Positions 1,912-64,000 of a stretch of DNA of 64,000 nt are shown here, piece after piece. A program made the translations under genes and the position numbers. The notes under the pieces are model-generated. The model made no database searches. It saw nothing but the letters and a program-made list of their open reading frames with translations, and had not been told where the DNA came from. Numbering within the stretch: position 1 is the first letter of the stretch; each line of letters opens with the position of its first letter. The DNA comes from Candidatus Xenobium occultum (GTDB lineage Bacteria; Vulcanimicrobiota; Xenobia; Xenobiales; Xenobiaceae): contig DIWH01000070.1 in NCBI GenBank assembly GCA_002423485.1, positions 25,429 through 89,428 of the forward strand, read 5' to 3'.

Positions 1912-2075
1912 GAGCCGTCCTCCCCGAAAGAACGAATAGGGGTGAAGGTTCGCCGGGAAGGCTTTCCCCCCCTCCGAAGAAAGGGAAATTCAGTCGGTCC
2001 TCCGCGCCCTGACACTTCCTGACAGGGGCGCAGGTCATCATGGGCCCAGGGCGGGGAGTTCCAGGGAGGTTCAGC

Positions 2076-4207: not shown

Positions 4208-4326
4208 TCTGGGCCTCCCCTCCGCCCTCGCCCGTCTCGAAACGGAGACGCCAGCCCCGGCGTAAACCGCTGGGGCTGGCGTCCGAAGCCCGCGGCCGGC
4301 CCGGAAGGACCAGCCGCGAAACCTCC

Positions 4327-5535
4327 TCAGGCCAGTCGACGCGGCATGTCGCGCGTGGCCAGGTGGCGCAGGGTTCCGGCCGGGTCGGCGAAGCGGGTCA
4401 AGAGGATCATGGCGGCGATCACGAAGGGCTTGTGGCCGGCCTCGCGGTACGTATCGAGGCGGTAGCGCTCGAAGACCGAGGCCGAGACCTCGCCTTCCTT
4501 GCAGCTTACGTCCGTGATGTCGGCAGGCAGGCAGTGGCAGTACAGCGCTTTGCCGTCCCGAGTGTGCTTCATCATCTCCTCGGTGCACTCCCAGTCCTTG
4601 TGACGCGCGTTCTCGGCCAGGGCAGCCAGTTCAAGCTCCTTGAGCTCGGCCGCGCGGCCACCGCGCAGCAGCTCCGTCCGCTTCTGCATCACGTGCATCG
4701 GAGCCCAGCTCTTGGGGTAGACGATGTCGGCGCCCTTGAAGGCCTCGGCCATGGAGTGCACGACCTCAAACTTCCCGCCCGACTCGGTGGCGAAGCGACG
4801 TGCGGCCTCGACCGGCTCGTCCACCAGGTCGTAGCCCTCAGGGTACGCCAGGCTGACGTCCATCCCGAAGCGGCTCATCAGGCCGATGATGCCCTGGGGA
4901 ACCGAGAGCGGCTTGCCATAGGAGGGCGAGTAGGCCCAGGTCATGGCGATCCTCTTGCCTCGAAGGTTCTCGACGCCACCGTAGTGGTCGATCAGGTGAC
5001 GGAGGTCGGCCAGGGCCTGGGTGGGGTGGTCCAGGTCGCACTGCAGGTTGACCACCGAGGGGCGCTGGGCCAGCACTCCGGCTTCAAAGCTCTCCTGCAC
5101 CGACTCGGCCACTTCGGCCTGGTAGCGGTTCCCCTCACCCAGGAACATGTCGTCCCGGATGCCGATCACTTCACTCAAGAAGGAAATCATGCTGGCGGTC
5201 TCGCGGACGGTCTCGCCGTGGGAGACCTGCGAGGTGGACTCGTCGAGTTCCTCGGTCATGAGGCCCAGCATGTTGCAGGCGGAACGGAACGAGTAGCGGG
5301 TCCGGGTGGACTTGTCGCGGAAGATCGAGATTCCCAGCCCGGTGTCGAAGAGGCGAACGGACTTGCCTGCACGGTTCAGGCGCTGCAGGGCCTCAGCCAC
5401 CAGCAGGACGGCGCGGATGTGCTCGGCGGGGTTGCGCCAGGTGATCAGGAAACTGCCATTGTGCAGATTGGTCGGGGTCTGTTCGAGGGCAGCGATCAAC
5501 TGCTGCACTTTGTCCTGGGTCATGGTTTCAGCCAT
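4327..5535 (-). CDS. YgeW-like (knotted) carbamoyltransferase of the aspartate/ornithine carbamoyltransferase superfamily
   Basis: Has the STRTR carbamoyl-phosphate-binding motif (KSTRTRYSF) and the HCLP motif (YCHCLPA). Its ~400-aa length is typical of the YgeW subfamily rather than ArgF/PyrB. The start was moved to the internal ATG (MAETMTQ). Confidence 0.8.
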   Translation of the reverse strand: MAETMTQDKVQQLIAALEQTPTNLHNGSFLITWRNPAEHIRAVLLVAEALQRLNRAGKSVRLFDTGLGISIFRDKSTRTRYSFRSACNMLGLMTEELDESTSQVSHGETVRETASMISFLSEVIGIRDDMFLGEGNRYQAEVAESVQESFEAGVLAQRPSVVNLQCDLDHPTQALADLRHLIDHYGGVENLRGKRIAMTWAYSPSYGKPLSVPQGIIGLMSRFGMDVSLAYPEGYDLVDEPVEAARRFATESGGKFEVVHSMAEAFKGADIVYPKSWAPMHVMQKRTELLRGGRAAELKELELAALAENARHKDWECTEEMMKHTRDGKALYCHCLPADITDVSCKEGEVSASVFERYRLDTYREAGHKPFVIAAMILLTRFADPAGTLRHLATRDMPRRLA

Positions 5536-5658
5536 GGCGATAAGCACTCTCCTGGAAGCCCGGCTGGCGTATGCCAACTGGAATGATGTAGACCGCCCCC
5601 GTTCTCCGCCTGCTCTCAGGACCCCTCCAATGCTGCGGGGGACCTGGCGGAAGTCGGC

Positions 5659-6885
5659 TCAGTAGACGAACTGCCGGACGTCGTAGTGGCTGACCACCGG
5701 ACCCTGGGGATGAGCGCGGAATCGCAGTCGGGAGCGCAAGTCCCGGCTCTGCTCGCGGCAAGCACGGCGATCCAGCAGGTCGGCCATCCCCTCCAGAACG
5801 TAGGGCGAGCGCGGATCGGGTTCGAACTCCGAGAGGCTGATCCGATCGCCCGCGTCCAGGGGAAGCCGGTTGAGCAGCTCTGCCGTCTTCTCGACGTGCT
5901 CCTCGGCCAGGGCCGGCCCGCCCACCCCGGTCATGACGATCACCCCGACCCGGATCCCGGCTGCTTTGAGGAGGCCTACCAACTCCTCCGCCTGGGCGGC
6001 GCTGCCAGGCTTGCGCAGCACTCGCAGGACCCGGTCGCTCCCCGTCTCGATCCCCAGGTGCAGGGAATCCAGTCCCAATCCGGCCAGCTCGCGCCAGACC
6101 TCCAGGGTGCGCCGGAGTGTGCTGAAGGTGTCCAGGAAGGACGAGAATCCCGACAGGTGCCCCGGCTGGAAGACGGGGTCTGCCGGGCGCGGCGCCTCCA
6201 GGCGACGGTGCAGCCAACCCAGGGCCGCCAGCAAGTGAGCGTCCGGGAGGCTGGCTGCGTTGGCATCCGCCAGGAAGACGCCGCGGCGCCAGGAAAGCCC
6301 TGCCCCCATGAAGGCCAGGGCCTCCTCGACGTGCCGGGTGAACTCCTCACGGGAGAGCACGCGGTAGGGGCGCTCCTTGTAGAAGGTGCAGAATGAGCAG
6401 CGATTGTAGCTGCAGCCCTCCGTCAACTGCAGGACCAGGGATCGGTACTGATCCGGGGGCAGGATCATGATCGGGCGCCAGATGCTTTTGAATCGCGCGG
6501 CGTCCTGATTCGGATCCAGTTCCACGGCCCGGCGCAAGGGCTCCGGGTGTCCCAGGAGCCGCCAACCTTCCTCCAGGAGCACGCGCACGTGCCCCAACTG
6601 GGAGGCCTGCTCCTCCGGAGCGAGCCGACGGACCCCCTGCTCCCACCCCTCCCGACCCGGCGCCCGCACCAGCTCCAGGACCGAACCGTCCAGCCCCCGG
6701 CGATGAACGACCCCGTGCCGGACCCAGGAGACCGGACGCCCTGCCAGGTCGAAGGCGCACATCTCGTCTCGGCCCCGATGCAACAGAATCCTCTCCTGGT
6801 TCCAGACCAGGCGGAACAGAGGCGTCCCAGGGGCAGGTGGAGCCAGGAGGGATCCGGTCTCAGGGACATTGGGCAGAGAGGACAT
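5659..6885 (-). CDS. radical SAM domain protein with an N-terminal ~190-aa domain of unknown function
   Basis: Cys triad CSYNRCSFC (Cx4Cx2C spacing) is followed by a Gly-rich SAM motif region (GIETGSDRVL). Only the C-terminal 408 codons of the 770-aa track ORF are taken. The N-terminal 362 codons are a GC-rich shadow overlapping purB. Confidence 0.7.
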   Translation of the reverse strand: MSSLPNVPETGSLLAPPAPGTPLFRLVWNQERILLHRGRDEMCAFDLAGRPVSWVRHGVVHRRGLDGSVLELVRAPGREGWEQGVRRLAPEEQASQLGHVRVLLEEGWRLLGHPEPLRRAVELDPNQDAARFKSIWRPIMILPPDQYRSLVLQLTEGCSYNRCSFCTFYKERPYRVLSREEFTRHVEEALAFMGAGLSWRRGVFLADANAASLPDAHLLAALGWLHRRLEAPRPADPVFQPGHLSGFSSFLDTFSTLRRTLEVWRELAGLGLDSLHLGIETGSDRVLRVLRKPGSAAQAEELVGLLKAAGIRVGVIVMTGVGGPALAEEHVEKTAELLNRLPLDAGDRISLSEFEPDPRSPYVLEGMADLLDRRACREQSRDLRSRLRFRAHPQGPVVSHYDVRQFVY

Positions 6886-6989
6886 GCCGTGAGGATAGCA
6901 CAGACGGTTCCAGGTCTCTTCCCGGTCCTGGGTGCGCACCGCGGCGGTGAAGACCTGCCGCCCCACCACCGTGGCCCGAAGCCCCGAGT

Positions 6990-8384
6990 TCAATGCTCTC
7001 CGAAGAGGACTCCATCCCAATGATCTGCCAGGGAAAGCGCGCGCCTTCGGGCGGGTCCGGTCAGGCTTCTGGGATCCTTCAGGGCGGCCCGCTGCCGGGC
7101 CGGGAGGGCTGCCAGGGCCGGCCCGAGTCGGGGGTCCTCGGCGACGACCTCCAGCAGGTCCCGGCCGGTGCGCCGAGCCTGGATGGCTGCCCGCCTCACA
7201 CCCTCGTGGGCCTCCGGCACCCCCGCGGCCGAGAGCAGGACCTGGAGAGGGCCGGAAAGCCATGCCGTCTCCTGCACAACCCTGGCCTCCATGGTGTCGC
7301 GCAGCACCTCCAGGTCGCGCAGGGCCCGAGCTGTCCGCGAGCCGGCGACGGCCAGGCCCAGCACCAGGCGAGGCTGGAATCGCGCCGAGGCCGAGTTGGA
7401 GAGGTCCCTCTGGTGCTCCGACACCTGATCCAGATACCAGGTCATCACCTGGGGGGCGAAAGTCTTCCAGAGGCTCTTGACGTTCTCCCAGGTGATGGGG
7501 TTGCGCTTGTGAGGCATCGCCGAAGAGCCGACCTGTCCCTCCTCGTCGTAGAATTCGGCCACCTCGTCGATCTCGGTGCGCTGCAGGTGGCGCATGTCGT
7601 CGGCCAGGTTGGCCAGCACGCCGAAGGCCGCGGTCAGGTGGTGCAGGACCGCCAGGGCCGGCTCGGGAGGGGCGATCTGGGTGGAGGCCCGGGCGGGCTC
7701 CAGGCCCACCTCCGCCAGGACCTCCCGCTCGAAGTCCTCGGGGTCGTCGAAGAGCAGGCCCTGGGCGACGAAGGCGCCCACCGCCCCCGAGAACTTCCCG
7801 CGCAGGCCAGCCAGGGCCCTCTGGATCTGGAGGACCTCCCCTCCCAGTCGGTCCAGGTGCACCGCGCAGACCAGTCCGAAGGTCAGCGGTTCGGCGTGCT
7901 GACCGTGGGTGCGCCCGATCTGCAAGGTTCCCGCCTCCCGGCGCGCCAGGCGCGCCAGTTCCCGACAGCACCGGCGCAGGGCCGGGAGGACCAGGCCCTC
8001 GACTCCGGCGCGCAACCGCGTCAGGTGCGCGTTGGACAGGATGTCATAGGAGGTGGCGCCCAGGTGGACAAAGGGCCGGATGGCCTCGGGGCACTCAGAC
8101 GTGAAGACGTTGACCAGGGCCTTGAGGTCGTGGTGGACCCGCGACTCTTCCTGACAGAAGTCCTCCAGACGGACCCGGCCGGCCGCCTCGACCGCCTCCG
8201 GGATCAGGGTCTCCGGCAGGAATCCCCGGCGGGCCAGGACCTTCAGGAGGGCCAGCTCGACCTTCAGGCAGTGGTCCAGGTACAGGGCGGCCTCGGAGAC
8301 CAGGCGGGAAGCCGGTTCCAGCAATCCTTCGGACTCGAGGTAACGCCCGATGAGGGGATCGGGGAACCACAGCGGATGGGTCAC
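6990..8384 (-). CDS. purB: adenylosuccinate lyase
   Basis: Fumarate-lyase signature GSSAMPHKRNP, plus N-terminal DPLIGRY (compare SPVDGRY in PurB). A GTG start at 8384 gives 464 aa. Confidence 0.9.
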   Translation of the reverse strand: MTHPLWFPDPLIGRYLESEGLLEPASRLVSEAALYLDHCLKVELALLKVLARRGFLPETLIPEAVEAAGRVRLEDFCQEESRVHHDLKALVNVFTSECPEAIRPFVHLGATSYDILSNAHLTRLRAGVEGLVLPALRRCCRELARLARREAGTLQIGRTHGQHAEPLTFGLVCAVHLDRLGGEVLQIQRALAGLRGKFSGAVGAFVAQGLLFDDPEDFEREVLAEVGLEPARASTQIAPPEPALAVLHHLTAAFGVLANLADDMRHLQRTEIDEVAEFYDEEGQVGSSAMPHKRNPITWENVKSLWKTFAPQVMTWYLDQVSEHQRDLSNSASARFQPRLVLGLAVAGSRTARALRDLEVLRDTMEARVVQETAWLSGPLQVLLSAAGVPEAHEGVRRAAIQARRTGRDLLEVVAEDPRLGPALAALPARQRAALKDPRSLTGPARRRALSLADHWDGVLFGEH

Positions 8385-8640
8385 GGCAGCCTCCAACTCG
8401 GCGTTTGGACTCCCCCGCTTCGCAAACCCTGCGGTGGCCTCCTGTGAAGCCCTCTCACACCGTCGCGCGGCTCCCGCCCGGAAGGGGGGCGACAGGAGAC
8501 GAACACTCCGCACACAAGACCGTAACATTTCGTTTACAGGCTATTCACAATGGCCGAATCCTGTAACATCCCAGCAACAATCCGCCTGAAAGATTGGAGC
8601 ATCCTCAGGCCAGGGGGAACCACTCGTCCAGGAGGCTCCG

Positions 8641-9807
8641 ATGTCCGAACCGATTCGCGCCATCAGCAACCAGCAGACCAACCGGACCGTCCACGCCGCC
8701 CAGTCGACCCCGACCGCCAGCGCTGTGACGGCCAGCCAGTCCACGGAGAAACCAGCCAAGGGACCGGCTGACGGAGCGGTTCTCTCGGACGAGGCCACCG
8801 CCGGGGCCGCCGAGGAGGGAGAAGACAGTCCACTCCTGGCGGCCCTGAAGGACCCTGAGGGGACTGAAGACTCCGAGAAGGCCGAGGATGGAACCACTCC
8901 CAAGGCCGACGAGACCGGGGAGAAGGAGAAGGCAGAGGATCCTTCCAAGACCGACGCCGAGAAGAAACAGGAAGAGATCAAGAAGCTCCAGGAAGAGATC
9001 CGCCAGACCGAGACCGAGCTGCAGGCGGCCCTGGACAAGGGCGACGAGGCGGCCGCCAACGCCGCGGCGGGCAGGCTGTCCACCCTGGTCTCGGATCTCC
9101 AGCGCCTGATGGGCGACAAGAGCACCTCGGCCCCGGATGTGGGTGTCCAGCCCGCCGCGGCCGACGCGGGCGGAGCAGCGGCTCCGGTGGATGCGGGCGG
9201 CGCCATGGCGGCTCCGGCCGGTGGCGGAGCTCCGATGGGAGGCGGTGCGCCCGCCGGCGGTGGAGCGCCCATGGGAGGCGCGGCCCCGGTGGGGGGCGAC
9301 GCCCCAGCCGCAGCCGCAGGGGAAGCGGCCCCGGCCTCCGAGACCCAGGTGGTCCCCCCCGAGCTCTCCGAGGATGACCAGAAGCTGGCCCAGTTCATCG
9401 AGACCCAGTTGGAGGGCAGCCCCGCCGCCGGTCAGGGCCTGGGCTCCCACTTCGTGGCCGCCGGACGGCAGAATGAGGTCGACCCCCTGGCCCTGCTGGC
9501 CATCGCCAAGCACGAGACGGGCTACGGCGAACTGGGCGTGGGCCTGACCAAGATGCTGGGGGTCGGGGCCTATGACTCCAACCCCGACGGCAAGACCCCC
9601 TTTGACGGCGCGGTCAACCAGATCTACTCGGGCGCCAAGACCTTCGCCAACCTCCGGTCCAAGGGCGGCTCCACCGCCCAGGACTCGCTGGGCAACCAGC
9701 TCTCGGCCGTGAACAAGGCCGGGTGGGCCACCGACCAGAGCTGGCACACCAAGGTCGCCTCCCACTACAACACCATCGCCGGCAACGCCAACCGGGCCGT
9801 CGCCTAG
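8641..9807 (+). CDS. glucosaminidase-domain (FlgJ C-terminal-like) peptidoglycan hydrolase with a long acidic, low-complexity N-terminal region
   Basis: C-terminal ~150 aa carries LLAIAKHETGYGE and YSGAKTFANL, which resemble the mannosyl-glycoprotein endo-beta-N-acetylglucosaminidase fold. The N-terminal 230 aa are E/K/A-rich, with a coiled-coil stretch and GGAPMGG repeats. No signal peptide is present. Confidence 0.65.
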   Translation: MSEPIRAISNQQTNRTVHAAQSTPTASAVTASQSTEKPAKGPADGAVLSDEATAGAAEEGEDSPLLAALKDPEGTEDSEKAEDGTTPKADETGEKEKAEDPSKTDAEKKQEEIKKLQEEIRQTETELQAALDKGDEAAANAAAGRLSTLVSDLQRLMGDKSTSAPDVGVQPAAADAGGAAAPVDAGGAMAAPAGGGAPMGGGAPAGGGAPMGGAAPVGGDAPAAAAGEAAPASETQVVPPELSEDDQKLAQFIETQLEGSPAAGQGLGSHFVAAGRQNEVDPLALLAIAKHETGYGELGVGLTKMLGVGAYDSNPDGKTPFDGAVNQIYSGAKTFANLRSKGGSTAQDSLGNQLSAVNKAGWATDQSWHTKVASHYNTIAGNANRAVA

Positions 9808-9829
9808 AACACTGCCCCGCCGACGAACG

Positions 9830-9860
9830 AAGGCCGCCAGGTTCAGGCCCGGCGGCCTTC
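9830..9860 (+). terminator. GC-rich hairpin downstream of the 8641-9807 gene
   Basis: gaaggccgcc ... ggcggccttc forms a 10-bp perfect stem with an 11-nt loop 22 nt after the stop codon. No U-tract follows. Confidence 0.3.
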
Positions 9861-9939
9861 GCCCGTGTCTGGCCGGGCCCCAGTTTGACTCAAGAGGAGT
9901 CCAGGACCCGTCTTGGAATCGAGCCCTCCGGAGGAAGCG

Positions 9940-10230
9940 ATGAACCACTGTCAGAGTTGTGGGATGCCCCTGGGAGACACCGAGGAGTGGCTGGGCCGCG
10001 AGCGGGACGGCAGTCTCAGCCCGGACTACTGCAAGCACTGCTATGACCGGGGCGAGTTCCGGGCCCAGATGACCATGGACCAGATGATCGAGTTCTGCAT
10101 CCCCCACCTGGTCCGAGCCCGGCCGGAGATGTCGCCCGCGGAAGCGCGCAAGCTCATGGAGGACATGTTCCCCCGGCTGAAGAGGTGGCGTCCTGCCGAC
10201 CAGGTCGGAGCCAACCTCTCCGGTCCGTGA
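9940..10230 (+). CDS. zinc-ribbon domain protein
   Basis: CQSCGMPL...YCKHCY gives two CxxC pairs. The ATG at 9940 has a GGAGGAAGCG SD immediately upstream. Confidence 0.6.
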   Translation: MNHCQSCGMPLGDTEEWLGRERDGSLSPDYCKHCYDRGEFRAQMTMDQMIEFCIPHLVRARPEMSPAEARKLMEDMFPRLKRWRPADQVGANLSGP

Positions 10231-11661: not shown

Positions 11662-11678
11662 TCTAGCGTGAGTTTCGG
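11662..11678. repeat. left terminal inverted repeat of the IS
   Basis: TCTAGCGTGAGTTTCGG. It contains the TAG that terminates the unassigned plus-strand ORF 11412-11666. Confidence 0.7.
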
Positions 11679-11724
11679 GGGGCAGGGCGACCTCGGCCAG
11701 TGAAAGCCCGTAGCCACTGCGGTT

Positions 11725-13443
11725 TCAGCTCACGTCATGAGTATACACAAAGGGGGGCGCCTGTGGGACCAGGTGCTCGAACACCGGGGGATCGCCGTCG
11801 CCCTCCTCCAGGACCCAGTTGCATGTGATCTTCTGCTTGCTCCGTTGGGTTGCGGTGTGCATGACCATGGCGAGCCTTGTCCGGCCAAGATGGTTCAAGA
11901 GTCCGGACAGGCTTCCCGTCCAGCCGCAGCGGGTCCGAGCCTCGTGATGCACCAGTCGAGCGAGGATGTAGGCGATCAAGCAGATGAAGATGTGGACCCG
12001 GAGCTTCTGGTCTGTCCAGTGGAACTGGGGTCGCACCGCGAGGTGCGTCGGGTCCTTCACCTGACGGAAGGCTGCCTCCAATTCGTATTGGCCGCGGTAG
12101 GCGAGAACGATCTCCTCGCTGGTCCAGTCATGCCGGTCGGTCATGAGGATGCGCTTGCCGAAGACGTCCTGATCCAAGCGCTCCACGGCATCCTGGTCGA
12201 TCGACCAGGTCAGTCTTTCCCGCCCCGACCGCTCTGGATTGAACTCGACCCGGAGCACATCGCGCACGTATTGGCCTGAGGTGAGCGAAGCGATCTTCTT
12301 CTGGGCACTCTCCGCGTTGCGTGGCCGGGAGCGCGGCTTTTCCAACTGGTCCTGCCACCTCGTCAGCGCTCGAATGCGCTTCTGAAGATGCTGGTTCAGG
12401 CCCCTCATCTGGCCCTCCCGGAGCATCTCGCTTCGGTAGAGGACCAGAGTTCGCTCCGCGCCCCAGATCACGCGCTTGCAGCGGTACACCGGCAGTCCCG
12501 CCAGTCGACCATCCTCCAATGCCGCATATTCCTCCAGGGGGATCTCTCGAAGGGCGCGGTATCGGCTGGGCGGCAGGGCGCCGACGTAATGAAAGGGAGC
12601 CTCGTCCACCTGGGCCTGGTTGCTCCGGGAGTTGTTGCCCATATCGTAGACGATGGTCGTCTCCTTGACCTTCTCTCCCAGGAGCGCTTCGAGCCGGGCC
12701 TGGATGCACCCGAGCGCCTGTGAGAACTGGACGACATCTGGGACGTTGCCATCGTAGACATGCGTGCACAGGGGGATCTGGCTCTCTCGGGCGCACAACA
12801 CCGACCAGGAAATCAGGCGCAGGTCCACGCGCTTCTGCTTGGAGTGGCCGCGCTGCGGGAGCTTGGGCCGGGTGTTGGTGCTTGCGATATAGGTGAAGAA
12901 GTTCGTGGTGTCGTACAGCAGGGTCTCGAGCTTCAGTTGGAACTCGTCGACGACCTTGCGGACCAATTCACCCTCGATCGCCTCGAGAGCCTCTGGGGAA
13001 ACGCGGTTCATCTGGTCCCAGAAGAACTGGCTGGTCAGTCGGTCAGGCCGCGTCAGACCGAACAGGTGCGAGATCGTGGTGTCTGCCGCCCACTCTGCCC
13101 ACCCCCGCTTGGATCGAGGTTGCACGGCCCGGTTGAGAGCTGCCAGCAGCAATGTGGTGCCGACTGATGGCGAGCGGCGACCTGGACCGACGTGACGGTC
13201 GATGATCTCGGCTACGCCGAGCCTGTCAGCCATGGCTTTGAGCGCGGCAACGTTGCCGTGCTGCTTCGAGCTCAAACGGATGGGGCCCGGTGCCCGGCCC
13301 GGATCTTGAAGGCGAGCCAAAAGGGCATCGGCCGTTCCGAGATACGCAACTGGAACAGGGCGCGGCTTCCCGTTCACGCGGCGAGACTCGACGATGCGCC
13401 AGTAGGTCCTGCCACCGACGCGGTGCTTCTGGAGGCTGGCCAT
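11725..13443 (-). CDS. IS1634-family transposase
   Basis: 572 aa, ATG start. The sequence, size and C-terminal architecture resemble IS1634/IS4 DDE transposases. Confidence 0.85.
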   Translation of the reverse strand: MASLQKHRVGGRTYWRIVESRRVNGKPRPVPVAYLGTADALLARLQDPGRAPGPIRLSSKQHGNVAALKAMADRLGVAEIIDRHVGPGRRSPSVGTTLLLAALNRAVQPRSKRGWAEWAADTTISHLFGLTRPDRLTSQFFWDQMNRVSPEALEAIEGELVRKVVDEFQLKLETLLYDTTNFFTYIASTNTRPKLPQRGHSKQKRVDLRLISWSVLCARESQIPLCTHVYDGNVPDVVQFSQALGCIQARLEALLGEKVKETTIVYDMGNNSRSNQAQVDEAPFHYVGALPPSRYRALREIPLEEYAALEDGRLAGLPVYRCKRVIWGAERTLVLYRSEMLREGQMRGLNQHLQKRIRALTRWQDQLEKPRSRPRNAESAQKKIASLTSGQYVRDVLRVEFNPERSGRERLTWSIDQDAVERLDQDVFGKRILMTDRHDWTSEEIVLAYRGQYELEAAFRQVKDPTHLAVRPQFHWTDQKLRVHIFICLIAYILARLVHHEARTRCGWTGSLSGLLNHLGRTRLAMVMHTATQRSKQKITCNWVLEEGDGDPPVFEHLVPQAPPFVYTHDVS

Positions 13444-13611
13444 ACATTGTGTATACCATATATTTGAAAACCAGTCAAACTTCCGATTTCATCGGGGTTT
13501 GCTGGCATAGACCTGTTTGTGTATACACTTTTCGGCAAGAGAAGAGCCCCGGAAACGCCCGTCAAATGGGGCTTCCGGGGCTCCTGCGGCGGCCCAGGTT
13601 TGGGCGCCTAT

Positions 13612-13628
13612 CCGAAACTCACGCTAGA
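13612..13628. repeat. right terminal inverted repeat of the IS
   Basis: CCGAAACTCACGCTAGA. Its CTA is the minus-strand stop codon of gene 13624-14511. Confidence 0.7.
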
Positions 13629-58347: not shown

Positions 58348-58397
58348 CGGGTCCTCCTTGGGGCGGAGTGAACGCCCCCACGAGCGCGGGGAAAGTG

Positions 58398-58418
58398 CCG
58401 GGGGGGGCTTCCCCCCCC
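58398..58418. other. perfect G8/C8 hairpin
   Basis: CGGGGGGGG-CTT-CCCCCCCCG sits 50 nt upstream of the nifS start and downstream of iscA. It could act as an attenuator or terminator, or be a structural DNA feature. Confidence 0.3.
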
Positions 58419-58460
58419 GCTCGAGAGTCTTAGGCTCCTAGGAGCCTGTGTGAATATCGC

Positions 58461-58581
58461 GTCGGTCGCCTCGCCGGGTCTCTTGCACCCCCGCTGTGTT
58501 GCAAAAAGTCTCATTTGCCTCCAGCAAACCACGACTTTTTGCGCCTTGCGGGGTGCACAAGATCCCTCGGCGATGCTCGGT
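58461..58581. repeat. 121-bp intergenic element, copy A (contains a 65-bp imperfect palindrome at 58488-58552)
   Basis: Reverse complement of 63416-63536 with ~90% identity. The core is CCCCGC...GCAAAAAGTC-(22 nt)-GACTTTTTGC...GCGGGG. Confidence 0.8.
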
Positions 58582-58601
58582 CCGGAGACTCACACAGACT
58601 C

Positions 58602-58928
58602 CTAGCCGCCGCAGGATCCCGAACAACCGCCGCAGGAGCGGACGGCGTTGGGGTTGTTGAACTGAAAGCCTCCCCCGTGGACGTCGGTGGTGAAGTCCAA
58701 TTCGGTCCCTTGCAGATAGGCGTAGCTCTGCCCATCGACCACGATGCGCAGGCCGTCCGACTCGAAGACGTGGTCGTCCTCGCGGACCTCCTGGTCGAAG
58801 CCCAGGGCATACCCCGGTCCCGAGCAGGTCATCCCCTGGACTCCCATCCTGAGGACGGCATCCTTCAGTTTGTGGTCTTCCATCAGTCTCTTGACTTCGC
58901 GAACAGCGGATTCGGTCGCGGTGATCAT
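58602..58928 (-). CDS. iscA: HesB/IscA-family Fe-S cluster insertion protein
   Basis: MITATESAVREVKRLMEDHKLKDAVLRMGVQG...FNNPNAVRSCGGCSGSCGG matches the IscA/ErpA architecture. The C-terminal Cys motif is atypically CGGCSGSC. The ATG has an AGGAGG SD. The preceding 234 codons of the track ORF are shadow. Confidence 0.85.
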   Translation of the reverse strand: MITATESAVREVKRLMEDHKLKDAVLRMGVQGMTCSGPGYALGFDQEVREDDHVFESDGLRIVVDGQSYAYLQGTELDFTTDVHGGGFQFNNPNAVRSCGGCSGSCGG

Positions 58929-59056
58929 CGCTTGATTTCCTCCTGACATCTGGAACGCACCCCTGGCCTCGAAGAGTCCGAGGGCCGATCCTGCGAGACC
59001 GATTATAGGTGTCCGGCCTGGTCCCGACAACAGACCTGGCCGAGTCGTCCCGCTGA

Positions 59057-60559
59057 TCAGGAGTCTTCCCGTTCCAGCGCCCGATATTCCAAAGCCTCGC
59101 AAAGATCCTGAAGGCCGATCCTCTCTCGCCCGGCCAGATCCGCCAGGGTCCGCCCCAGGCGAAGGACGCGGTCGTGCACCCGAGCGGACAAGGACAGACG
59201 ACGGAAGGCCTGCAACAGGAAGCCCCGGGTCTCGGCGTCCAGGACGCAGAAGCGACGGGTCTGGGCCGGCCCCAGATCGGCGTTCCGGCAGCCGCGTTCC
59301 TGCTGGATCGCGACGGCGCGCACCACCCGCTCGCGCACCGTCGCAGAAGGTTCTCCGGACTGCCTGGACATCAACTCCTCGGGTTCCGGGCGCGGGACCC
59401 GGACCTGAAGGTCGATCCGGTCGACCAGGGGACCGGACAGGCGATGGAAGTAACGCTCCCTCTGGGTGGGCGAGCAGGTGCACTCCCGGACCGGGTCCCC
59501 GTGGTAGCCGCAGGGGCAGGGATTCATGGCGGCGACCAGGGTGAAGCGACAAGGATAACCGGTGTGGAATCCGGCCCGGGCCACCAGGACCTGTCCATCC
59601 TCCAGGGGGGCGCGCAGCGCCTCCAGGCAATCCCTTCGGAACTCGGGGAACTCGTCCATGAACAGGACCCCCCGGTGAGCCAGACTGATCTCTCCTGGAG
59701 TGAAGCTGCCGATCAAGCCGGCCAGCGAGACGCTCTGGGCGGGGGCGCGGAAGGGAGGAGTGCGCGGAAGCCCCCGCAAGTTGCTGAGACGTCGCTGCGT
59801 GCTGTGGATGCGGGTCACCTCCAGGGCCTCCTCCTGCGACAGGGACGGCAGGACCGAAGGCAGGCAGCGAGCCAGCAGGGTCTTGCCCGAGCCCGGTGGC
59901 CCCACGAGAAGCAGATGGTGTCCTCCGGCGGCGCAGATCTCCAGGGCACGCCGGGCCAGATGCTGACCGCGGACGACCTCCAGGTCCACACCTTCAGGCT
60001 CCAGACCGGCCGGTTCGGGAAGGACCGGCGCCGGCGACTCGCGACCCGAGGCGACCTCGACGGCCTCTCGCAGGTCCCGCACGGCCAACACCCTCAGCCC
60101 CGAGACCAGGGCTGCTTCCGGCCCGTTGGCCAAGGGGACCATCACGCGCGAAAGGCCCATCCGACGCGCCAGGAGGACCGAGGAGAGGACTCCCCGGATG
60201 GGGCGGACCGCCCCGTCCAGGGCCAGCTCCCCCAGAACCATGAGTTCTTTGAGCTGGGCTGGACGAACCACGGGTCTCCCGGTTTCCGAAGCCAGGATCC
60301 CCAAGGCGATGGCCAGGTCGAAACGAGGCCCTTCCTTGCGAATCTCCCCGGGAGCCAGGTTGACGGTGACCCGTCGGGAGGACGGCGCATAGCCCGAATT
60401 GCGCAAGGCCCCCTGGACCCGCTCGCGGGACTCAGCGGCGCTGGCGTCGGGCAGGCCGACCAGGGTGTAGTTGGGAACTCCGGCCGTGACGTCCACCTCG
60501 ACGCGGACGGGGTGGGACTCGACCCCCACAAGGGTCGCAGAATCGAGAAGGGCGAGCAT
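59057..60559 (-). CDS. comM: YifB/ComM family Mg-chelatase-like AAA+ ATPase
   Basis: N-terminal Lon-like domain, Walker A GPPGSGKT, the AAA+ core and a C-terminal ChlI domain, 500 aa. Confidence 0.9.
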   Translation of the reverse strand: MLALLDSATLVGVESHPVRVEVDVTAGVPNYTLVGLPDASAAESRERVQGALRNSGYAPSSRRVTVNLAPGEIRKEGPRFDLAIALGILASETGRPVVRPAQLKELMVLGELALDGAVRPIRGVLSSVLLARRMGLSRVMVPLANGPEAALVSGLRVLAVRDLREAVEVASGRESPAPVLPEPAGLEPEGVDLEVVRGQHLARRALEICAAGGHHLLLVGPPGSGKTLLARCLPSVLPSLSQEEALEVTRIHSTQRRLSNLRGLPRTPPFRAPAQSVSLAGLIGSFTPGEISLAHRGVLFMDEFPEFRRDCLEALRAPLEDGQVLVARAGFHTGYPCRFTLVAAMNPCPCGYHGDPVRECTCSPTQRERYFHRLSGPLVDRIDLQVRVPRPEPEELMSRQSGEPSATVRERVVRAVAIQQERGCRNADLGPAQTRRFCVLDAETRGFLLQAFRRLSLSARVHDRVLRLGRTLADLAGRERIGLQDLCEALEYRALEREDS

Positions 60560-60715
60560 CCGGAAGCCTCCGGTCCCTCGACTCGGGGCGGCCGTGAGCC
60601 ACCGCGGCGCGCCGCCTTCGGGCGCTCCCGTATCTTTCTAGACGCTGGCCACCGACTCCTGCCATGGATGAGGATCGGGTATCATGGAAGGAAAGCCTGC
60701 AAGGAGGGACGGAGC

Positions 60716-61531
60716 ATGAGACGGGTGTGGCTGGTCCTGGTCTGGGCCGTGGTGATGGTCCTTCCCCTCGGCGCCCAGGAGTTGGAGGTCCGGGTCTTCC
60801 AGCTCTTCAACCGACCCGCGGAAGCCACCGTCGAACCCGTGCGCATGGTCCTGAGCCCTGCGGGCACGGTGGTTCCGGACCCGCGCACCCAGACCCTGAT
60901 CGTCCGGGACGATTCAGAGGCCTTGCTGCGGGTTGGAGACCTGCTGCGACATCTGGACGTTCCCGCTCCCCTGATCCGCGTCACCGTCGGCTTCAACGGC
61001 TCGACGGGGCAGAGCGGCCAGGGGGCCGGAGTCGCCTGGGACCCGGCCCGAGACCGGCTGCTGGCTGGAGCTGGAGCTCGTCAGGCCGGGGTTCTGACCA
61101 CTGGTCGTCAGGATCTGCTGGTGATGAGCGGTGAAGAGGCTCGGCTGGTCCTGGCCCGTGACCTGGTGGAGGTCCGTCCCTACTGGACCCTGGCGCGAGA
61201 CCGCGGCCTGATCCCTCCGGGCGTGGTCTTCCGCCAGGTCAGCACGGGTTTCGTGGTCCGCCCCCGCGCCGTGGGCGAGCAGATCACCGTGGAGGTGGTC
61301 CCCTGGTTTTCCTACCTGGGACCGGACGGCCCCGGAGACGTGCGCTTCACCGAGGCGGCCACCACCCTCCGCGTCCCCGACGGACAGACCGTGGAGTTGG
61401 CCGGCACCAGCTTCCAGACCGAGCCCTCGCGCCGGGTCTTCGGGCTGATCATGGCTGGGGGCTCGGGCAGTTCCTGGGAATCGGCCAACCTGACCCTCAG
61501 CGCCCGGATCCAGCCGGACTGGTCGAAGTAG
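60716..61531 (+). CDS. small secreted protein with a secretin-N-like domain
   Basis: Signal peptide MRRVWLVLVWAVVMVLPLGAQ with a GGAGG SD. The segment TQTLIVRDDSEALLRVGDLLRHLD matches the secretin N-domain pattern. It lacks a full C-terminal secretin channel. Only the last 272 codons of the track ORF are taken. Confidence 0.55.
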   Translation: MRRVWLVLVWAVVMVLPLGAQELEVRVFQLFNRPAEATVEPVRMVLSPAGTVVPDPRTQTLIVRDDSEALLRVGDLLRHLDVPAPLIRVTVGFNGSTGQSGQGAGVAWDPARDRLLAGAGARQAGVLTTGRQDLLVMSGEEARLVLARDLVEVRPYWTLARDRGLIPPGVVFRQVSTGFVVRPRAVGEQITVEVVPWFSYLGPDGPGDVRFTEAATTLRVPDGQTVELAGTSFQTEPSRRVFGLIMAGGSGSSWESANLTLSARIQPDWSK

Positions 61532-63341
61532 ACACCGGCCCGGAACCCTCGACGCGGGCTGAGCCCTCCGGATCCAGGACGCAGCGGAACCCCGAGTTGA
61601 CCAGGGTCCCGTTCTCGGGGAAGACCCCTTTGCGCGAGACGGTGGTGCACTCGGCGACCGGATCGTTGCGAGAACCTCCCCGGGCCACGCGCAGCAACGG
61701 CAGGTCCTCGGCACTCGAGCCCAGGGGGATGTACCAGGCATCCACCCACTCCCAGACGTTGCCCGCCAGGTCCTCCACTCCATAGGGCGAGGCTCCCCGG
61801 GGGAAGGAACCCACCGGAGAGGTGTTGCCGACCGCGGATTCAAAGCAGTTCAGACGCCGGGCGTCCCAGGTGTTGCCCCAGGGATAGAGTCGACCGTCTC
61901 CCCCCCGAGCAGCCTTCTCCCACTCCTCCTCGGTCGGCAGGCGCTTGTCCGCCCACAAGGCATAGGCCTCGGCGTCATACCACGACACGGAGATCACGGG
62001 GTGATCCCTCCTGTCGGGGGTGGCATGGCGCTCCCAGTGCCCTTGAGCCCGGTACCCGGTGGCTTCGACGAACCGGCGGAACTGCCGATTGGTCACTTCG
62101 AAGCGATCGATGTAGAACGCCTCCACCTCCAGCCGTTGCGGCTCCACGCCGGGACCAGCCTCAGGGTGTGGGCCCTCCAGGAAGGATCCGGCAGGCACCA
62201 GGATCATGCGCGAACCGTCCTTGCGGTGGACCCAGGAAACCGGAAGAAGACGACCTGAGGGCCTCTGGACGCGAGGCGAAGGTCTCGGCTCGGGAGCCGG
62301 GGGCGCCTCGGCGGGAGGCGGACCACCAACCCGAGCCCCGGCCAGAAGGCCCCCGACCAGCGCCAGGCCGCACAATCCCACAACTCCTCCAAGCCACCAA
62401 GGCCGGGCCGGGCGAGGCCGGCCGCCCAGCGGCGCAGGCGCCGGCGCAGGCTGGGAAGACCTCAGGGAGGCCCGACGCCGAAAGGCGATCCAGGACTGCA
62501 CCTGCTGATGAAGCTCTTGAAAGGACGGGCGTTGCTCGGGATCGGCTTCGAGAAGGCGGACCAGCGAACGCCCCAGCGAATCCGGCAGGCCCTCCGGCGG
62601 CGACGGCTCGCTGCCCGGGATCAGCAAGGTCAGGGCATCCGCCGGCGGCTGGCCTCCCCACAGGTGCAGGCAGGTGGCGCCCAGTTGGTAGCGACCCACG
62701 GCGGGCCCCACCTGGCCTCGGCCGTGCTGTTCGGGAGCCGCGTAGGGGGGAGTGCCCTCCAAGGCCCACCCCGGGTCGCACAACACCAGGCCTTGGGTGG
62801 TGCGCACCAGATGCTCGGGGCGCAGATCCAACAAGACCAGCTCTTCCGACCAACGCGACGCCAGTTCCAGGATCTCGGCCAGGGTGGCCGGGTCAATCCG
62901 GGGCTGGAGGGGTTGACCTTCGATCCAGGGGCGCACCGCAAAGAGGCGGCCCTCCTCCTCGAGCATCTCCTCCGGCAGGACGACCCCGTCGGGCTGGAGC
63001 ACGCGCAGGGAGGCCAGCCGGGCTCGGGCCTCCTCTGCAGACACCCCGATCAGCTCGCGCTGGACCCGACCATCCGCCCGCCTCCAGGTGCGAGGGCCCA
63101 GGGGGATGGCTCCGGGTGTGCCGGGCAGGTCTGCCGATGGCAGGCTCACGAGGGGCTCTCCCAGGGTTCCCAGAACGGGCACCTTCGGGCCGGCGGGGGC
63201 TCCAGGGTCTGGGAAACCGGTTCCATCAGATAATCCTCGCGACTCTTCCAACCCAGGATCCGGCAGCGGAAGACGAGATAACCGGTGTCCAGGATCCCGG
63301 GGAACTCCTCCCCCTCCTCCACCATCTCGAGGTGTCGACAC
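61497..63341 (-). CDS. kinase-like (probably pseudokinase) / transmembrane / FGE-sulfatase (SUMF1, DUF323) domain fusion protein
   Basis: N-terminal region with degenerate Hanks-kinase subdomains (LLDLRPEHLV, YAAPEQ) but no Gly-loop or VAIK Lys. A transmembrane helix (WWLGGVVGLCGLALVGGLLAG) is followed by an FGE domain (FYIDRFEVTNRQFRRFVEATGY...GNVWEWV...GGS). It has a GTG start. Confidence 0.8.
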   Translation of the reverse strand: MSTPRDGGGGGGVPRDPGHRLSRLPLPDPGLEESRGLSDGTGFPDPGAPAGPKVPVLGTLGEPLVSLPSADLPGTPGAIPLGPRTWRRADGRVQRELIGVSAEEARARLASLRVLQPDGVVLPEEMLEEEGRLFAVRPWIEGQPLQPRIDPATLAEILELASRWSEELVLLDLRPEHLVRTTQGLVLCDPGWALEGTPPYAAPEQHGRGQVGPAVGRYQLGATCLHLWGGQPPADALTLLIPGSEPSPPEGLPDSLGRSLVRLLEADPEQRPSFQELHQQVQSWIAFRRRASLRSSQPAPAPAPLGGRPRPARPWWLGGVVGLCGLALVGGLLAGARVGGPPPAEAPPAPEPRPSPRVQRPSGRLLPVSWVHRKDGSRMILVPAGSFLEGPHPEAGPGVEPQRLEVEAFYIDRFEVTNRQFRRFVEATGYRAQGHWERHATPDRRDHPVISVSWYDAEAYALWADKRLPTEEEWEKAARGGDGRLYPWGNTWDARRLNCFESAVGNTSPVGSFPRGASPYGVEDLAGNVWEWVDAWYIPLGSSAEDLPLLRVARGGSRNDPVAECTTVSRKGVFPENGTLVNSGFRCVLDPEGSARVEGSGPVSTSTSPAGSGR

Positions 63342-63415
63342 AGGGCGCAGATCTTCCAGGAGTCGTCCAGTCTGTTCACAGGCCCAGATATTCTAGGGGC
63401 CCGGTCGGAAACCTC

Positions 63416-63536
63416 GACCGAGCATCGCCGAGGGATTTTTTGTCCCCGCCAGGAGCAAAAAGTTGCGGTTTGCTTGAGGCAAATGAGACTTTTTGCGACA
63501 CAGCGGGGGCGGAAAAGACCCGGCGAGGCGACCGAG
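63416..63536. repeat. 121-bp intergenic element, copy B (inverted relative to copy A)
   Basis: See copy A. It lies 75 nt upstream of the kinase/FGE gene start and 120 nt downstream of the ppdK stop. Confidence 0.8.
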
Positions 63537-63656
63537 GGATTTCCGTCTGGGTTCCTAGCATGCCCCGGAGATTTCGAGCCGACCCCCAGGCGTGCAGGAG
63601 CCCCGCCCCGGCGAACCGGAACGGGGCCCTGCGTCGTGACCATCAGGCCTCAGGAA

Positions 63657-64000
63657 CTAGCGCAGATCGACGCTGGCACCCTGGCCGTCGCGCTTCTCGC
63701 AGATGGCGGCCTGGGCGGCAGCCAGACGCGCGATGGGGACCCGGAAAGGCGAGCAGGACACGTAGGTCAGGCCCAACTCGTGGCAGAAGGCCACCGACTC
63801 GGGCTCACCGCCGTGCTCGCCGCAGATGCCGATCTCCATGTCCGCGCCGCGGACCTGGCGGCCTTCCTGGACAGCCATCCGCATCAGGCGGCCGACACCC
63901 ACGCGGTCCACCACCTGGAAGGGATCGACCTTGAGGATCTTCTCCTCGAGGTAGACCGGCACGAAGGTGCCGGCGGCGTCGTCGCGGGAGTAGCCGAAGG
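63657..64000 (-). CDS. ppdK: pyruvate phosphate dikinase, C-terminal (PEP-utilising) fragment; the gene continues beyond the window
   Basis: [42 protein letters not shown] is the PPDK C-terminal signature including the catalytic Cys. Confidence 0.8.

What the first reader, a model, noticed from the sequence alone, without database searches (positions are those of the whole stretch)
58461..63536. 121-bp palindrome-containing non-coding element present twice in inverted orientation 4.8 kb apart
58461-58581 and 63416-63536 are ~90% identical as reverse complements over their full 121 bp. Each contains a 65-bp imperfect palindrome with a perfect 10-bp stem (GCAAAAAGTC ... GACTTTTTGC) nested in an outer CCCCGC/GCGGGG stem. 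Both copies are intergenic. Copy A lies between iscA and nifS. Copy B lies between ppdK and the kinase/FGE gene. All flanking genes are on the minus strand, so the two copies have opposite orientation relative to transcription. That argues against a riboswitch or classical 5' UTR element. It favours a DNA-level element, either a repeated operator or protein-binding site (the isc context suggests an Rrf2/IscR-type palindrome) or a REP/MITE-like genomic repeat. The two copies bracket iscA, comM, the secretin-N gene and the kinase/FGE gene.
Basis: seen in the sequence. Interest (0 to 1): 0.6.

Follow-up and report, generated by a model that had tools for sequence, protein, structure and literature searches.

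The report
Hairpin-shaped miniature transposon inserted at CTAG
The two inverted 121-bp repeats are two separate insertions of a small, non-coding, hairpin-shaped mobile element that lands on the rare sequence CTAG. It has spread to dozens of sites in an uncultured anaerobic bacterial lineage, so it is selfish DNA and not an iron-sulfur regulator site.

Summary
Each copy is about 160 nt and sits between two CTAG tetramers: 58438-58605 (type A) and 63393-63558 (type B, opposite orientation). The two copies belong to different subfamilies. Their interiors are about 85-89% identical and their termini only about 45%. Each is closer to copies elsewhere (98-100%) than to the other.

I recovered 78 full copies at about 42 distinct sites in related MAGs and metagenomes. 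Five relatives with the same gene order have plain X-CTAG-Y at both window sites, so both copies are clean insertions with CTAG (or its central TA) duplicated.

CTAG is about 9-fold depleted in the window and often overlaps TAG stop codons. That explains why 16 of 41 sites, including the iscA stop codon, abut a gene end. Orientation relative to genes and along contigs shows no significant bias, and there is no link to isc genes. This rules out an IscR-type operator or a riboswitch.

Best reading: a new MITE-like family, probably moved in trans by a DDE transposase that I did not find.

Four features are unusual:
- A full-length hairpin with compensatory changes.
- A strong wobble-pair bias to one strand.
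- One in-place inversion.
- One copy read through in frame by a polyketide synthase gene.

The parts
58438..58605 (+). Type A copy of the element. It has a 160-nt body (GAGCCTGTGTGAATA...ACTCACACAGACTC) between two CTAG. The reference orientation is on the plus strand. The better-folding strand is the minus strand, which is the mRNA sense of iscA-nifS.
   Evidence: Ends defined by alignment to other copies. The central 122 nt are 100% identical to copies in L085, L071, L055, L036 and L035. The copy is absent from the orthologous spacer in L086-L090. It is present at the same site in four independent assemblies that carry the identical NifS.
58438..58441 (.). CTAG at the nifS-proximal end of copy A (one copy of the duplicated target).
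   Evidence: Empty sites read GG-CTAG-GAGCC. The filled site reads GG-CTAG-[164 nt ending in CTAG]-GAGCC.
58602..58605 (.). CTAG at the iscA-proximal end of copy A. On the minus strand, 58604-58602 is the TAG stop codon of iscA (iscA = 58949-58602, minus strand).
   Evidence: Translation ends ...GSCGG*. ORF end at 58602. Alignment to empty sites.
63393..63558 (-). Type B copy. It has a 158-nt body (GAACCCAGACGGAAA...TTTCCGACCGGGCCC, read on the minus strand) between two CTAG. The better-folding strand is the plus strand, antisense to the neighbouring genes.
   Evidence: 98% identical to the copy in L002. Absent from the orthologous ppdK-small ORF spacer of L086, L087, L089 and L090, which read CATG-CTAG-AATAT.
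63393..63396 (.). CTAG at the end of copy B nearest the small CxxC gene. That gene's GTG start is 13 nt further on, at 63379 on the minus strand. Together with the following AAT, this CTAG forms TAGAAT, a -10-like hexamer that is also present at the empty sites.
   Evidence: Sequence and alignment. The promoter reading is an inference only. The consensus scan did not call a promoter here.
63555..63558 (.). CTAG at the ppdK-proximal end of copy B, 98 nt downstream of the ppdK stop codon (63657-63659).
58501..58542 (.). Apical hairpin of copy A (GCAAAAAGTC / GACTTTTTGC stem with the TTTGC/GCAAA tip). It is the AT-rich core conserved in both subfamilies.
   Evidence: Independent compensatory A-T to G-C changes occur in this stem in other copies (alignment columns 66/103, 67/102, 68/101).

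Best explanation
The two repeats are independent insertions of a non-autonomous, non-coding mobile element of the MITE kind. The unit is about 160 nt and folds end to end into an imperfect hairpin, so its terminal inverted repeats are the outer stem. It integrates at the tetranucleotide CTAG and leaves CTAG at both ends. This could be a 4-bp duplication, as in IS5-type elements. It could equally be a TA duplication inside CTAG, as in IS630/Tc1-mariner elements. The two models give the same sequence.

The family has at least two terminal types (A and B) that share one interior. It also has 48-nt minis, variants with one or two extra GC hairpins, and chimeras.

Shown here:
- Dispersal to about 42 sites.
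- Clean insertion polymorphism at both window sites and at a third site.
- CTAG specificity.
- No significant orientation bias.
- No coding capacity.

Inferred:
- Movement is catalysed in trans by a DDE transposase encoded elsewhere in the genome. I did not find it.
- CTAG is about 9-fold depleted and often overlaps TAG stop codons, so the element accumulates right after genes, as at iscA.
- At the two window sites it is most likely neutral or mildly perturbing. Copy A puts a hairpin of about -100 kcal/mol into the iscA-nifS spacer RNA. Copy B replaces the sequence upstream of a -10-like TAGAAT in front of a small CxxC gene.
For: Family and copy number:
- 8 copies in 3 MAGs and 76 metagenome loci.
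- 78 full copies fall into about 42-44 sites with different flanks.

Mobility:
- Relatives with NifS 79-93% identical and identical synteny have X-CTAG-Y where the window has X-CTAG-[element]-CTAG-Y, at both sites.
- L035 has a second, different-type copy inserted at the terminal CTAG of a copy that stands alone in L077 and L022.
- The orthologous region L049/L028 (92% identical to window 269-10191) carries two copies that the window lacks.

Subfamilies:
- A-A 96.7%, B-B 93.9% and A-B 75% identity. A-B termini are 45% identical and interiors 85%.
- Each window copy is 98-100% identical to copies elsewhere and 89% to the other window copy.

Target:
- End tetramers are CTAG in 22 of 41 left ends and 25 of 41 right ends. 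Most of the rest are one substitution away.
- There is no preference beyond CTAG.
- CTAG occurs 23 times in the window against 205 expected.
- 16 of 41 sites abut a TAG stop codon.

Orientation:
- 10 same and 8 opposite relative to the abutting gene.
- 9 and 16 between co-directional genes.
- 2 same and 5 opposite along shared contigs.

Precedents:
- MITEPsy1, an IS5-derived 100-nt MITE, duplicates CTAG (PMC3189936).
- IS630-family elements duplicate TA, and the cited Tenzen and Ohtsubo title reports a preference for TA in CTAG (PMC2170065).
- An unrelated IS1634-family IS in the same window (11667-13623) is also bounded by CTAG on both sides.
Against: No autonomous partner was found.
- There is no IS-sized pair of matching termini in about 0.9 Mb of fetched loci.
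- There is no match in plasmids or viral contigs.
- The IS1634 element has different termini and no similarity to the element.

The termini are the least conserved part between subfamilies and the interior the most conserved. That is the reverse of a textbook MITE.

The hairpin is much better on one strand. RNA parameters give -100.8 against -79.7 kcal/mol in 40 of 41 copies, with 8.3 against 4.2 G-U pairs per copy. DNA parameters give -47.4 against -39.0 kcal/mol for copy B. Recognition of double-stranded DNA by a DDE transposase does not predict this.

No site shows a non-CTAG direct repeat of a full-size copy, so the duplication length (2 or 4 bp) is unresolved.
Confidence: 0.8

Rival explanations
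1. The element is moved as single-stranded DNA by a HUH/Y1 transposase, like REPINs with RAYT or the PATE derivatives of IS200/IS605. The enzyme would recognise the hairpin on one strand and insert 3' of the tetranucleotide CTAG. The second CTAG would be the element's own cleavage site and not a duplication.
For: - The hairpin carries a strand bias in wobble pairs.
- Compensatory changes maintain the hairpin across its whole length, including the interior.
- 'Insertion next to CTAG with an element-borne CTAG' gives the same filled and empty sequences as a duplication.
- Four sites have end tetramers that co-vary as inverted rather than direct repeats: CTGG/CCAG twice, CAAG/CTTG and TTAG/CTAA.
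Against: - There is no significant orientation bias along contigs (2 same, 5 opposite) or within the window. IS200/IS605-type insertion is strand-biased with respect to replication (my own knowledge).
- Both ends are symmetric, and both end tetramers decay equally.
- There is no conserved GTAG.
- phmmer with E. coli RayT found no homologue in any ORF of 70 aa or more in the fetched loci. This is a weak negative.
Confidence: 0.12
2. The conserved interior hairpin is a functional RNA or DNA module that the host keeps, for example an mRNA 3'-end stabiliser, an attenuator, or a protein or RNase III site. Mobility would only be its means of spread.
For: - The interior is more conserved than the termini.
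- The G-U strand bias fits single-strand folding.
- Many copies lie directly after stop codons.
- There is a non-significant trend (16 to 9) for the better-folding strand to be in the sense transcript between co-directional genes.
Against: - Placement after stop codons is matched by target availability. At least 7 of 21 CTAG targets in the window are TAG stops, compared with 16 of 41 element sites.
- Orientation at stop codons is 10 to 8.
- Orthologous sites in relatives lack the element with no other change.
- There is no Rfam match, and no promoter or terminator consensus apart from one weak terminator-like hit.
- High identity within subfamilies can reflect recent spread.
Confidence: 0.06
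3. The pair is a repeated operator for an Rrf2/IscR-type regulator, or the arms of an invertible or composite segment spanning 58.6-63.4 kb.
For: There is only the isc context of copy A and the inverted arrangement.
Against: - About 42 sites lie in unrelated contexts.
- Both copies are absent from the same spacers in relatives that keep the isc operon and the same gene order.
- The two copies are different subfamilies.
- No inverted arrangement of the segment was seen in L086-L090, L093 or L094.
Confidence: 0.02

Closest known systems
MITEPsy1 of Pseudomonas syringae (IS5-family derived MITE; PMC3189936)
   Same: It is small (100 nt) and non-coding with terminal inverted repeats. It inserts at CTAG (or YTAA) with the tetramer duplicated, and its termini begin GGA.
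   Different: There is no sequence similarity. MITEPsy1 has a known parent (ISPsy2) and is not a full-length hairpin. The element here has two terminal types on one conserved interior and no parent was found.
IS630/Tc1-mariner family elements and their MITEs (PMC2170065)
   Same: They duplicate the TA target. The cited title of Tenzen and Ohtsubo 1991 reports an IS630 preference for TA inside CTAG. That pattern would give exactly the junctions seen here.
   Different: No IS630-type transposase or matching termini were found. TA and CTAG duplication cannot be told apart from these sequences.
Whole-length palindromic repeats such as ERIC/IRU of enterobacteria and Correia elements of Neisseria (from my own knowledge; MITE review PMC10969869)
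   Same: They are dispersed units of about 100-160 bp that fold end to end into a hairpin. They are mostly intergenic, occur in either orientation, and have size variants with internal insertions or deletions.
   Different: They are unrelated in sequence and host. The strict CTAG target, the strand-biased wobble pairing and the A/B terminal swap are specific to this family.
Rickettsia palindromic elements (RPE; PMC10969869)
   Same: One type B copy (net insertion 162 nt, or 54 codons) is read through in frame by a giant PKS gene. It lies in an interdomain region.
   Different: This is one case among about 42 sites. Type A adds 164 nt and cannot be in frame. Most copies here are intergenic.
REPIN/RAYT systems and IS200/IS605-derived PATEs (from my own knowledge)
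   Same: They have a hairpin maintained by compensatory changes, possible single-strand recognition, and a tetranucleotide at the ends.
   Different: There is no GTAG, no RAYT homologue in the sampled loci, no orientation bias, and both ends are symmetric.

Membership tests
MITE (non-autonomous DDE-type transposable element) | Small size and no coding capacity | tested here: met
   The body is 158-160 nt, with variants of 48 to 218 nt. The only ORF calls inside the element are weak, spurious ones.
MITE (non-autonomous DDE-type transposable element) | Terminal inverted repeats | tested here: met
   The outer stem of about 20 bp pairs in both types, with A-to-B differences compensated (alignment columns 10/159, 12/157, 14/155, 16/153, 18/151).
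MITE (non-autonomous DDE-type transposable element) | Target-site duplication shown by filled versus empty sites | tested here: met
   X-CTAG-Y against X-CTAG-[element]-CTAG-Y at both window sites and at the L035 versus L077/L022 site. The duplication length (TA or CTAG) cannot be resolved.
MITE (non-autonomous DDE-type transposable element) | Many dispersed copies with insertion polymorphism between relatives | tested here: met
   About 42 sites. The window lacks two copies that are present in the 92%-identical L049/L028 region.
MITE (non-autonomous DDE-type transposable element) | A full-length IS in the same genomes that shares the termini | tested here: inconclusive
   None was found in about 0.9 Mb of loci, in plasmids or in viral contigs.
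IS5-family derived MITE | 4-bp duplication of CTAG/YTAR and termini like those of an IS5-family IS | tested here: inconclusive
   The junctions are compatible. The termini begin G(G)A like IS5 (GGAAGGTGCGAA) and MITEPsy1, but the similarity is weak. No InsH-like ORF was found in the loci.
IS630/Tc1-mariner derived MITE | TA duplication and an IS630-type transposase partner | tested here: inconclusive
   The junctions are compatible. TTAG...CTAA and TTAG...CTAG sites fit N-TA-N targets. No partner was found.
REPIN/RAYT or IS200/IS605-type (HUH/Y1) element | Associated Y1 transposase gene flanked by the repeats, conserved GTAG-type tetranucleotide, no duplication, strand-biased insertion | tested here: not met
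   - There is no RayT homologue among the ORFs of the loci (weak test).
- The tetranucleotide is CTAG, not GTAG.
- Orientation along contigs is 2 same and 5 opposite.
- Absence of a duplication cannot be tested, because the target and the end are the same tetramer.
Rrf2/IscR operator | Conserved position upstream of isc/suf genes in relatives, and restriction to the regulon | tested here: not met
   It is absent from the iscA-nifS spacer of L086-L090. It is present at about 42 unrelated sites.
Riboswitch or cis-regulatory RNA | Fixed orientation and position relative to a conserved downstream gene, or membership of a described RNA family | tested here: not met
   Orientation counts were 10 same to 8 opposite at stop codons and 9 to 16 between co-directional genes. 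No Rfam family scored at or near its gathering threshold.
Rickettsia palindromic elements (works-like only) | Frequent in-frame insertion into protein-coding genes | tested here: not met
   Only one convincing read-through copy was found (L078). The copy inside an RHS-like gene shifts the frame.

The most novel reading that the evidence does not exclude
The conserved interior hairpin, with wobble pairs concentrated on one strand and repeated compensatory changes, is what the mobility machinery or the host reads as a single strand. Under this reading the family is a hairpin transposon. It would move or be repaired through a folded single-stranded intermediate, it could flip in place (site 12), and it would swap terminal modules. 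That would put it between classical DDE MITEs and REPIN-like elements.
Probability: 0.15. Interest if true: 0.6.

Novelty: new member of a known kind. Interest (0 to 1): 0.35.

Why it matters
It removes a tempting but wrong regulatory reading of the isc locus. It also adds a well-delimited mobile-element family to a barely studied, uncultured anaerobic lineage, probably class UBP9/Xenobia of Eremiobacterota. In that lineage these repeats break short-read assemblies: two of the four independent contigs with the identical NifS end inside copy A.

The strict CTAG target shows how a depleted tetranucleotide that overlaps TAG stop codons funnels selfish DNA to gene ends.

The strand-biased hairpin, the in-place inversion and the in-frame copy in a PKS gene are concrete, testable oddities. 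They could inform how palindromic MITEs are recognised and maintained.

Tried and rejected
**RNA families.** Rfam at gathering threshold on the whole window and at E up to 10 on copy A gave nothing meaningful.

**Searches outside the lineage.** BLASTN (distant mode) of copy A against plasmids gave no match. The type A terminus had no match in viral contigs.

**Search for the parent IS.**
- I searched all loci for the A and B termini with up to 3 mismatches. This found only more small elements, minis and decayed copies.
- I ran a generic scan for TA-flanked 16-nt inverted repeats 0.5-3.5 kb apart. It found only an unrelated IS1634-family IS in the window.
- phmmer with E. coli InsH (IS5) and RayT against all ORFs of 70 aa or more in the loci gave no hits.

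**Empty sites.** The L049/L028 orthologous region shows two insertions that are missing from the window. The spacers have diverged too much there for a clean empty-site read. The clean ones came from the NifS-anchored loci.

**Gene calling.** Two quick GC-frame gene callers mis-called comM and were replaced by a self-trained codon model.

**Other ideas that did not hold.**
- Extended target preference beyond CTAG: none.
- The idea that the copies sit after stop codons because of selection: not needed, since CTAG availability explains it.
- A promoter or terminator inside the element: not supported by the consensus scan.
- A close PKS orthologue lacking the 54-aa insert: none was found. Only homologues at 36-44% identity were available.


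Full report
**Observation.** The two stretches are reverse complements of each other. Arms 58462-58553 / 63444-63535 are 90% complementary, and 58551-58582 / 63416-63447 are 88%. BLAST gives 89.3% identity over 121 nt. A 21-mer from the core occurs exactly twice in 64 kb, against none in 100 shuffles. Both strands of both copies fold much better than shuffled controls (z -4.2 to -7.3).

**True extent and anatomy.** Copies from other genomes show that similarity continues beyond the 121 nt, up to a CTAG on each side. Copy A is 58438-58605: a 160-nt body, GAGCCTGTGTGAATA...ACTCACACAGACTC, between two CTAG. Copy B is 63393-63558, read on the minus strand: a 158-nt body, GAACCCAGACGGAAA...TTTCCGACCGGGCCC. 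The whole unit is one long imperfect hairpin, so its 'terminal inverted repeats' are simply the outer stem. The two window copies belong to two subfamilies. Type A copies are 96.7% identical to each other and type B copies 93.9%. A against B is 75% overall, with 45% in the terminal 20 nt and 85% in the interior. Copy A's central 122 nt are 100% identical to copies in five other loci. Copy B is 98% identical to the copy in L002. The two are therefore not a local duplication of each other.

**Census.** A pattern for the core found 8 true copies in three MAGs: JALHDH01, UBP9_UBA1432, and JAAZKF01, which is labelled Burkholderiales. A pattern for the outer conserved blocks found 76 metagenome loci. 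Because those two blocks were required to match exactly, their invariance in the alignment comes from the search, not from biology. After grouping by flanks, 78 full copies fall into about 42-44 distinct sites. The variants are:
- forms with one extra GC hairpin (194-195 nt);
- a form with two extra hairpins (218 nt, L020 2961-3178);
- 48-nt minis that keep only type B termini (for example L035 2169-2216);
- chimeras (A termini on a B interior at site 40; a B left end with an A right end at site 33);
- decayed fragments.

The window itself has only the two copies.

**Mobility.** Proteins 79-93% identical to the window's NifS led to five syntenic loci with the order ppdK, small ORF, FGE-sulfatase, Secretin_N, comM, iscA, nifS, nifU.
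- In the iscA-nifS spacer they read ...GG-CTAG-GAGCC..., where the window reads ...GG-CTAG-[164 nt ending in CTAG]-GAGCC....
- In the ppdK-small ORF spacer four of them read ...CATG-CTAG-AATAT..., where the window reads ...CATG-CTAG-[162 nt ending in CTAG]-AATAT....

Both window copies are therefore clean, lineage-specific insertions with CTAG, or its central TA, duplicated.

A third polymorphism is in L035, where a type A copy sits at the terminal CTAG of an extra-hairpin copy that stands alone in L077 and L022. In the other direction, a contig 92% identical to window 269-10191 carries two copies that the window lacks.

Copy A is not an assembly artefact. The identical NifS occurs in four independent assemblies. 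Two of them span the filled spacer and two break inside the element.

**Target and position.** The end tetramers are CTAG at 22 of 41 left ends and 25 of 41 right ends. Most of the rest are single substitutions of CTAG. Flanks beyond the tetramer look like those of unoccupied CTAG sites. CTAG is very rare in the window: 23 occurrences against 205 expected from base composition, and four of the 23 are element ends.

Many CTAG overlap TAG stop codons. At 16 of 41 sites the element abuts the TAG stop of a called gene, including iscA, whose stop codon is 58604-58602. At least 7 of the 21 target CTAG in the window are such stop codons (my reading of the positions against the ORFs). Target availability alone therefore explains why the element sits at gene ends.

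**Regulatory readings.** Relative to the abutting gene, orientation is 10 same and 8 opposite. Between co-directional genes it is 9 and 16. Along shared contigs it is 2 same and 5 opposite. The sites have no common gene context. Rfam gives nothing, and a consensus scan finds no promoter in either copy and only one weak terminator-like hit. An IscR-type operator, a riboswitch and a 5'-UTR element are therefore not supported. The segment between the copies has the same gene order in relatives that lack both copies, so nothing suggests a composite or invertible unit.

**The hairpin.** On an alignment of 33 non-redundant copies, the consensus structure has 49 pairs. 98.1% of cells are paired, compared with 93.3% in shuffles and 35-49% when partners are slid. 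15 pairs have changes on both sides. Most of these separate type A from type B. Several others are independent events in the AT-rich inner stem (columns 66/103, 67/102, 68/101, 72/97).

The structure is strongly strand-biased. With RNA parameters the strand opposite to my reference orientation folds at a mean of -100.8 kcal/mol against -79.7, in 40 of 41 copies. It has 8.3 G-U pairs per copy against 4.2. With DNA parameters copy B gives -47.4 against -39.0. A purely double-stranded recognition site does not predict this bias. This is the main unexplained feature.

**Other oddities.**
1. At one site the flanks and the end tetramers (CTAG and CTGG) are identical, yet the whole element is present in both orientations. 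L005 and L021 have one orientation and L074 and L032 the other, each seen in two independent assemblies. They share derived internal mutations, which points to an in-place inversion and not to two separate insertions.
2. In L078 a type B copy whose ends have mutated to CGAG and CTGG is read through in frame (54-55 residues) by an ORF of more than 3385 codons with no stop. The ORF is a type I polyketide synthase, and the copy lies between the KS and KR regions. Four homologues at 36-44% identity have gaps at that place. Type B adds 162 nt, which is 54 codons. Type A adds 164 nt.
3. L034 joins the left flank of one site to the right flank of another. This is either recombination between copies or an assembly chimera.

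**Mechanism.** The filled and empty junctions fit two models equally well. One is a 4-bp CTAG duplication, as documented for the IS5-derived MITEPsy1 (PMC3189936). The other is a TA duplication inside CTAG, as in the IS630/Tc1-mariner family (PMC2170065). The two models give the same string, so sequence alone cannot decide.

The window also holds a full IS of the IS1634 family. Its transposase is 11725-13443 on the minus strand (NCBIfam E 2.4e-78, with a weak DDE_Tnp_1 hit), and it is bounded by CTAG on both sides (11663-11666 and 13624-13627). This shows that a DDE-type element in this genome sits between CTAG repeats. Its termini differ from the small element's, and there is no similarity between the two, so it is not shown to be the partner.

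I found no partner IS. A single-strand (HUH/Y1) mechanism remains possible and would account for the strand-biased hairpin. Against it are the lack of significant orientation bias, the symmetric ends and the absence of a RayT-like gene in the sampled DNA.

**Local consequences (inference only).** Copy A lengthens the iscA-nifS spacer from about 90 to 254 nt. It places the better-folding strand in the sense transcript, 90 nt upstream of the nifS start. Copy B sits 13 nt upstream of the GTG of a conserved 77-aa CxxC gene. The target CTAG there is part of TGCTAGAAT, an extended -10-like motif in the empty alleles. After insertion TAGAAT remains, but the upstream TG is displaced. Neither effect was tested.

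**Host.** One MAG with the element is UBP9_UBA1432. UBP9 is described as a basal, anaerobic class of Candidatus Eremiobacterota (PMC6664022). The nearest named NifS relatives, at 61-63% identity, are a Candidatus Eremiobacterota bacterium and Candidatus Bruticola, which belongs to class Xenobia. The 'Burkholderiales' MAG shares an orthologous filled site with JALHDH01 (L006 against L001), so that label is doubtful.

**Verdict.** This is a real, well-delimited, mobile palindromic repeat family: a new member of the MITE kind in an uncultured lineage, not a regulator site. It is ordinary in kind. The strand-biased full-length hairpin, the conserved interior with swapped termini, the in-place inversion and the in-frame copy are worth a specialist's second look. 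Interest is 0.35.

Noticed in passing
window 11663-13627: This is a full-length IS of the IS1634 family, with body 11667-13623 and a 572-aa transposase on the minus strand at 11725-13443. It has 13-nt inverted termini (CGTGAGTTTCGG...) and CTAG directly on both sides. It therefore shows the same target tetramer as the small element but has unrelated ends. Only one copy exists in all fetched DNA.
   Followed up: partly
L005 2131-2297, L021, L074, L032 (site 12): These loci have identical flanks and end tetramers (CTAG and CTGG), yet the whole element is inverted in two of the four assemblies. They share internal mutations, which points to an in-place flip. The mechanism is unknown.
   Followed up: partly
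L078 7053-7218: A type B copy is read through in frame (54-55 residues) by a type I polyketide synthase ORF of more than 3385 codons, between the KS and KR regions. Distant homologues have gaps there. This resembles Rickettsia palindromic elements.
   Followed up: partly
window 61497-63379: The 614-aa 'kinase/FGE' ORF is out of frame at its 5' end. Relatives have a conserved 77-aa CxxC small protein gene followed by an overlapping FGE-sulfatase gene. In the window the small gene starts at the GTG at 63379 on the minus strand.
   Followed up: partly
window 60716-61531: The Secretin_N-domain gene inside the bracketed segment is on the plus strand, convergent with the FGE gene.
   Followed up: yes
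whole window: CTAG is about 9-fold under-represented (23 observed, 205 expected from base composition). A large share of the occurrences are TAG stop codons preceded by C.
   Followed up: yes
L034 versus L084 and L020: The L034 contig joins the left flank of one element site to the right flank of another (the 218-nt variant site). This is either recombination between copies or an assembly chimera at the repeat. Two contigs with the window's NifS also end inside copy A (L095, L096).
   Followed up: no
L035 2169-2216; L057 about 3858-3905; L003 about 4090-4125: These are 48-nt or shorter mini elements made only of type B termini joined at the short direct repeat TCGGTC, which also flanks the interior in full copies. 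They could be deletion derivatives, or the bare shell into which the interior was inserted.
   Followed up: no
window 58393-58419: A native GC hairpin (GGGGGGGGCTTCCCCCCCC) lies between copy A and nifS. A similar G-run/C-run hairpin is also present at the empty sites of relatives, most clearly in L089, so it is not part of the element. It has no T-run after it.
   Followed up: no
L006 and L009 (JAAZKF01): The MAG labelled 'Burkholderiales bacterium' carries the element. It shares an orthologous filled site with the JALHDH01 MAG, so the label or the binning is doubtful.
   Followed up: no
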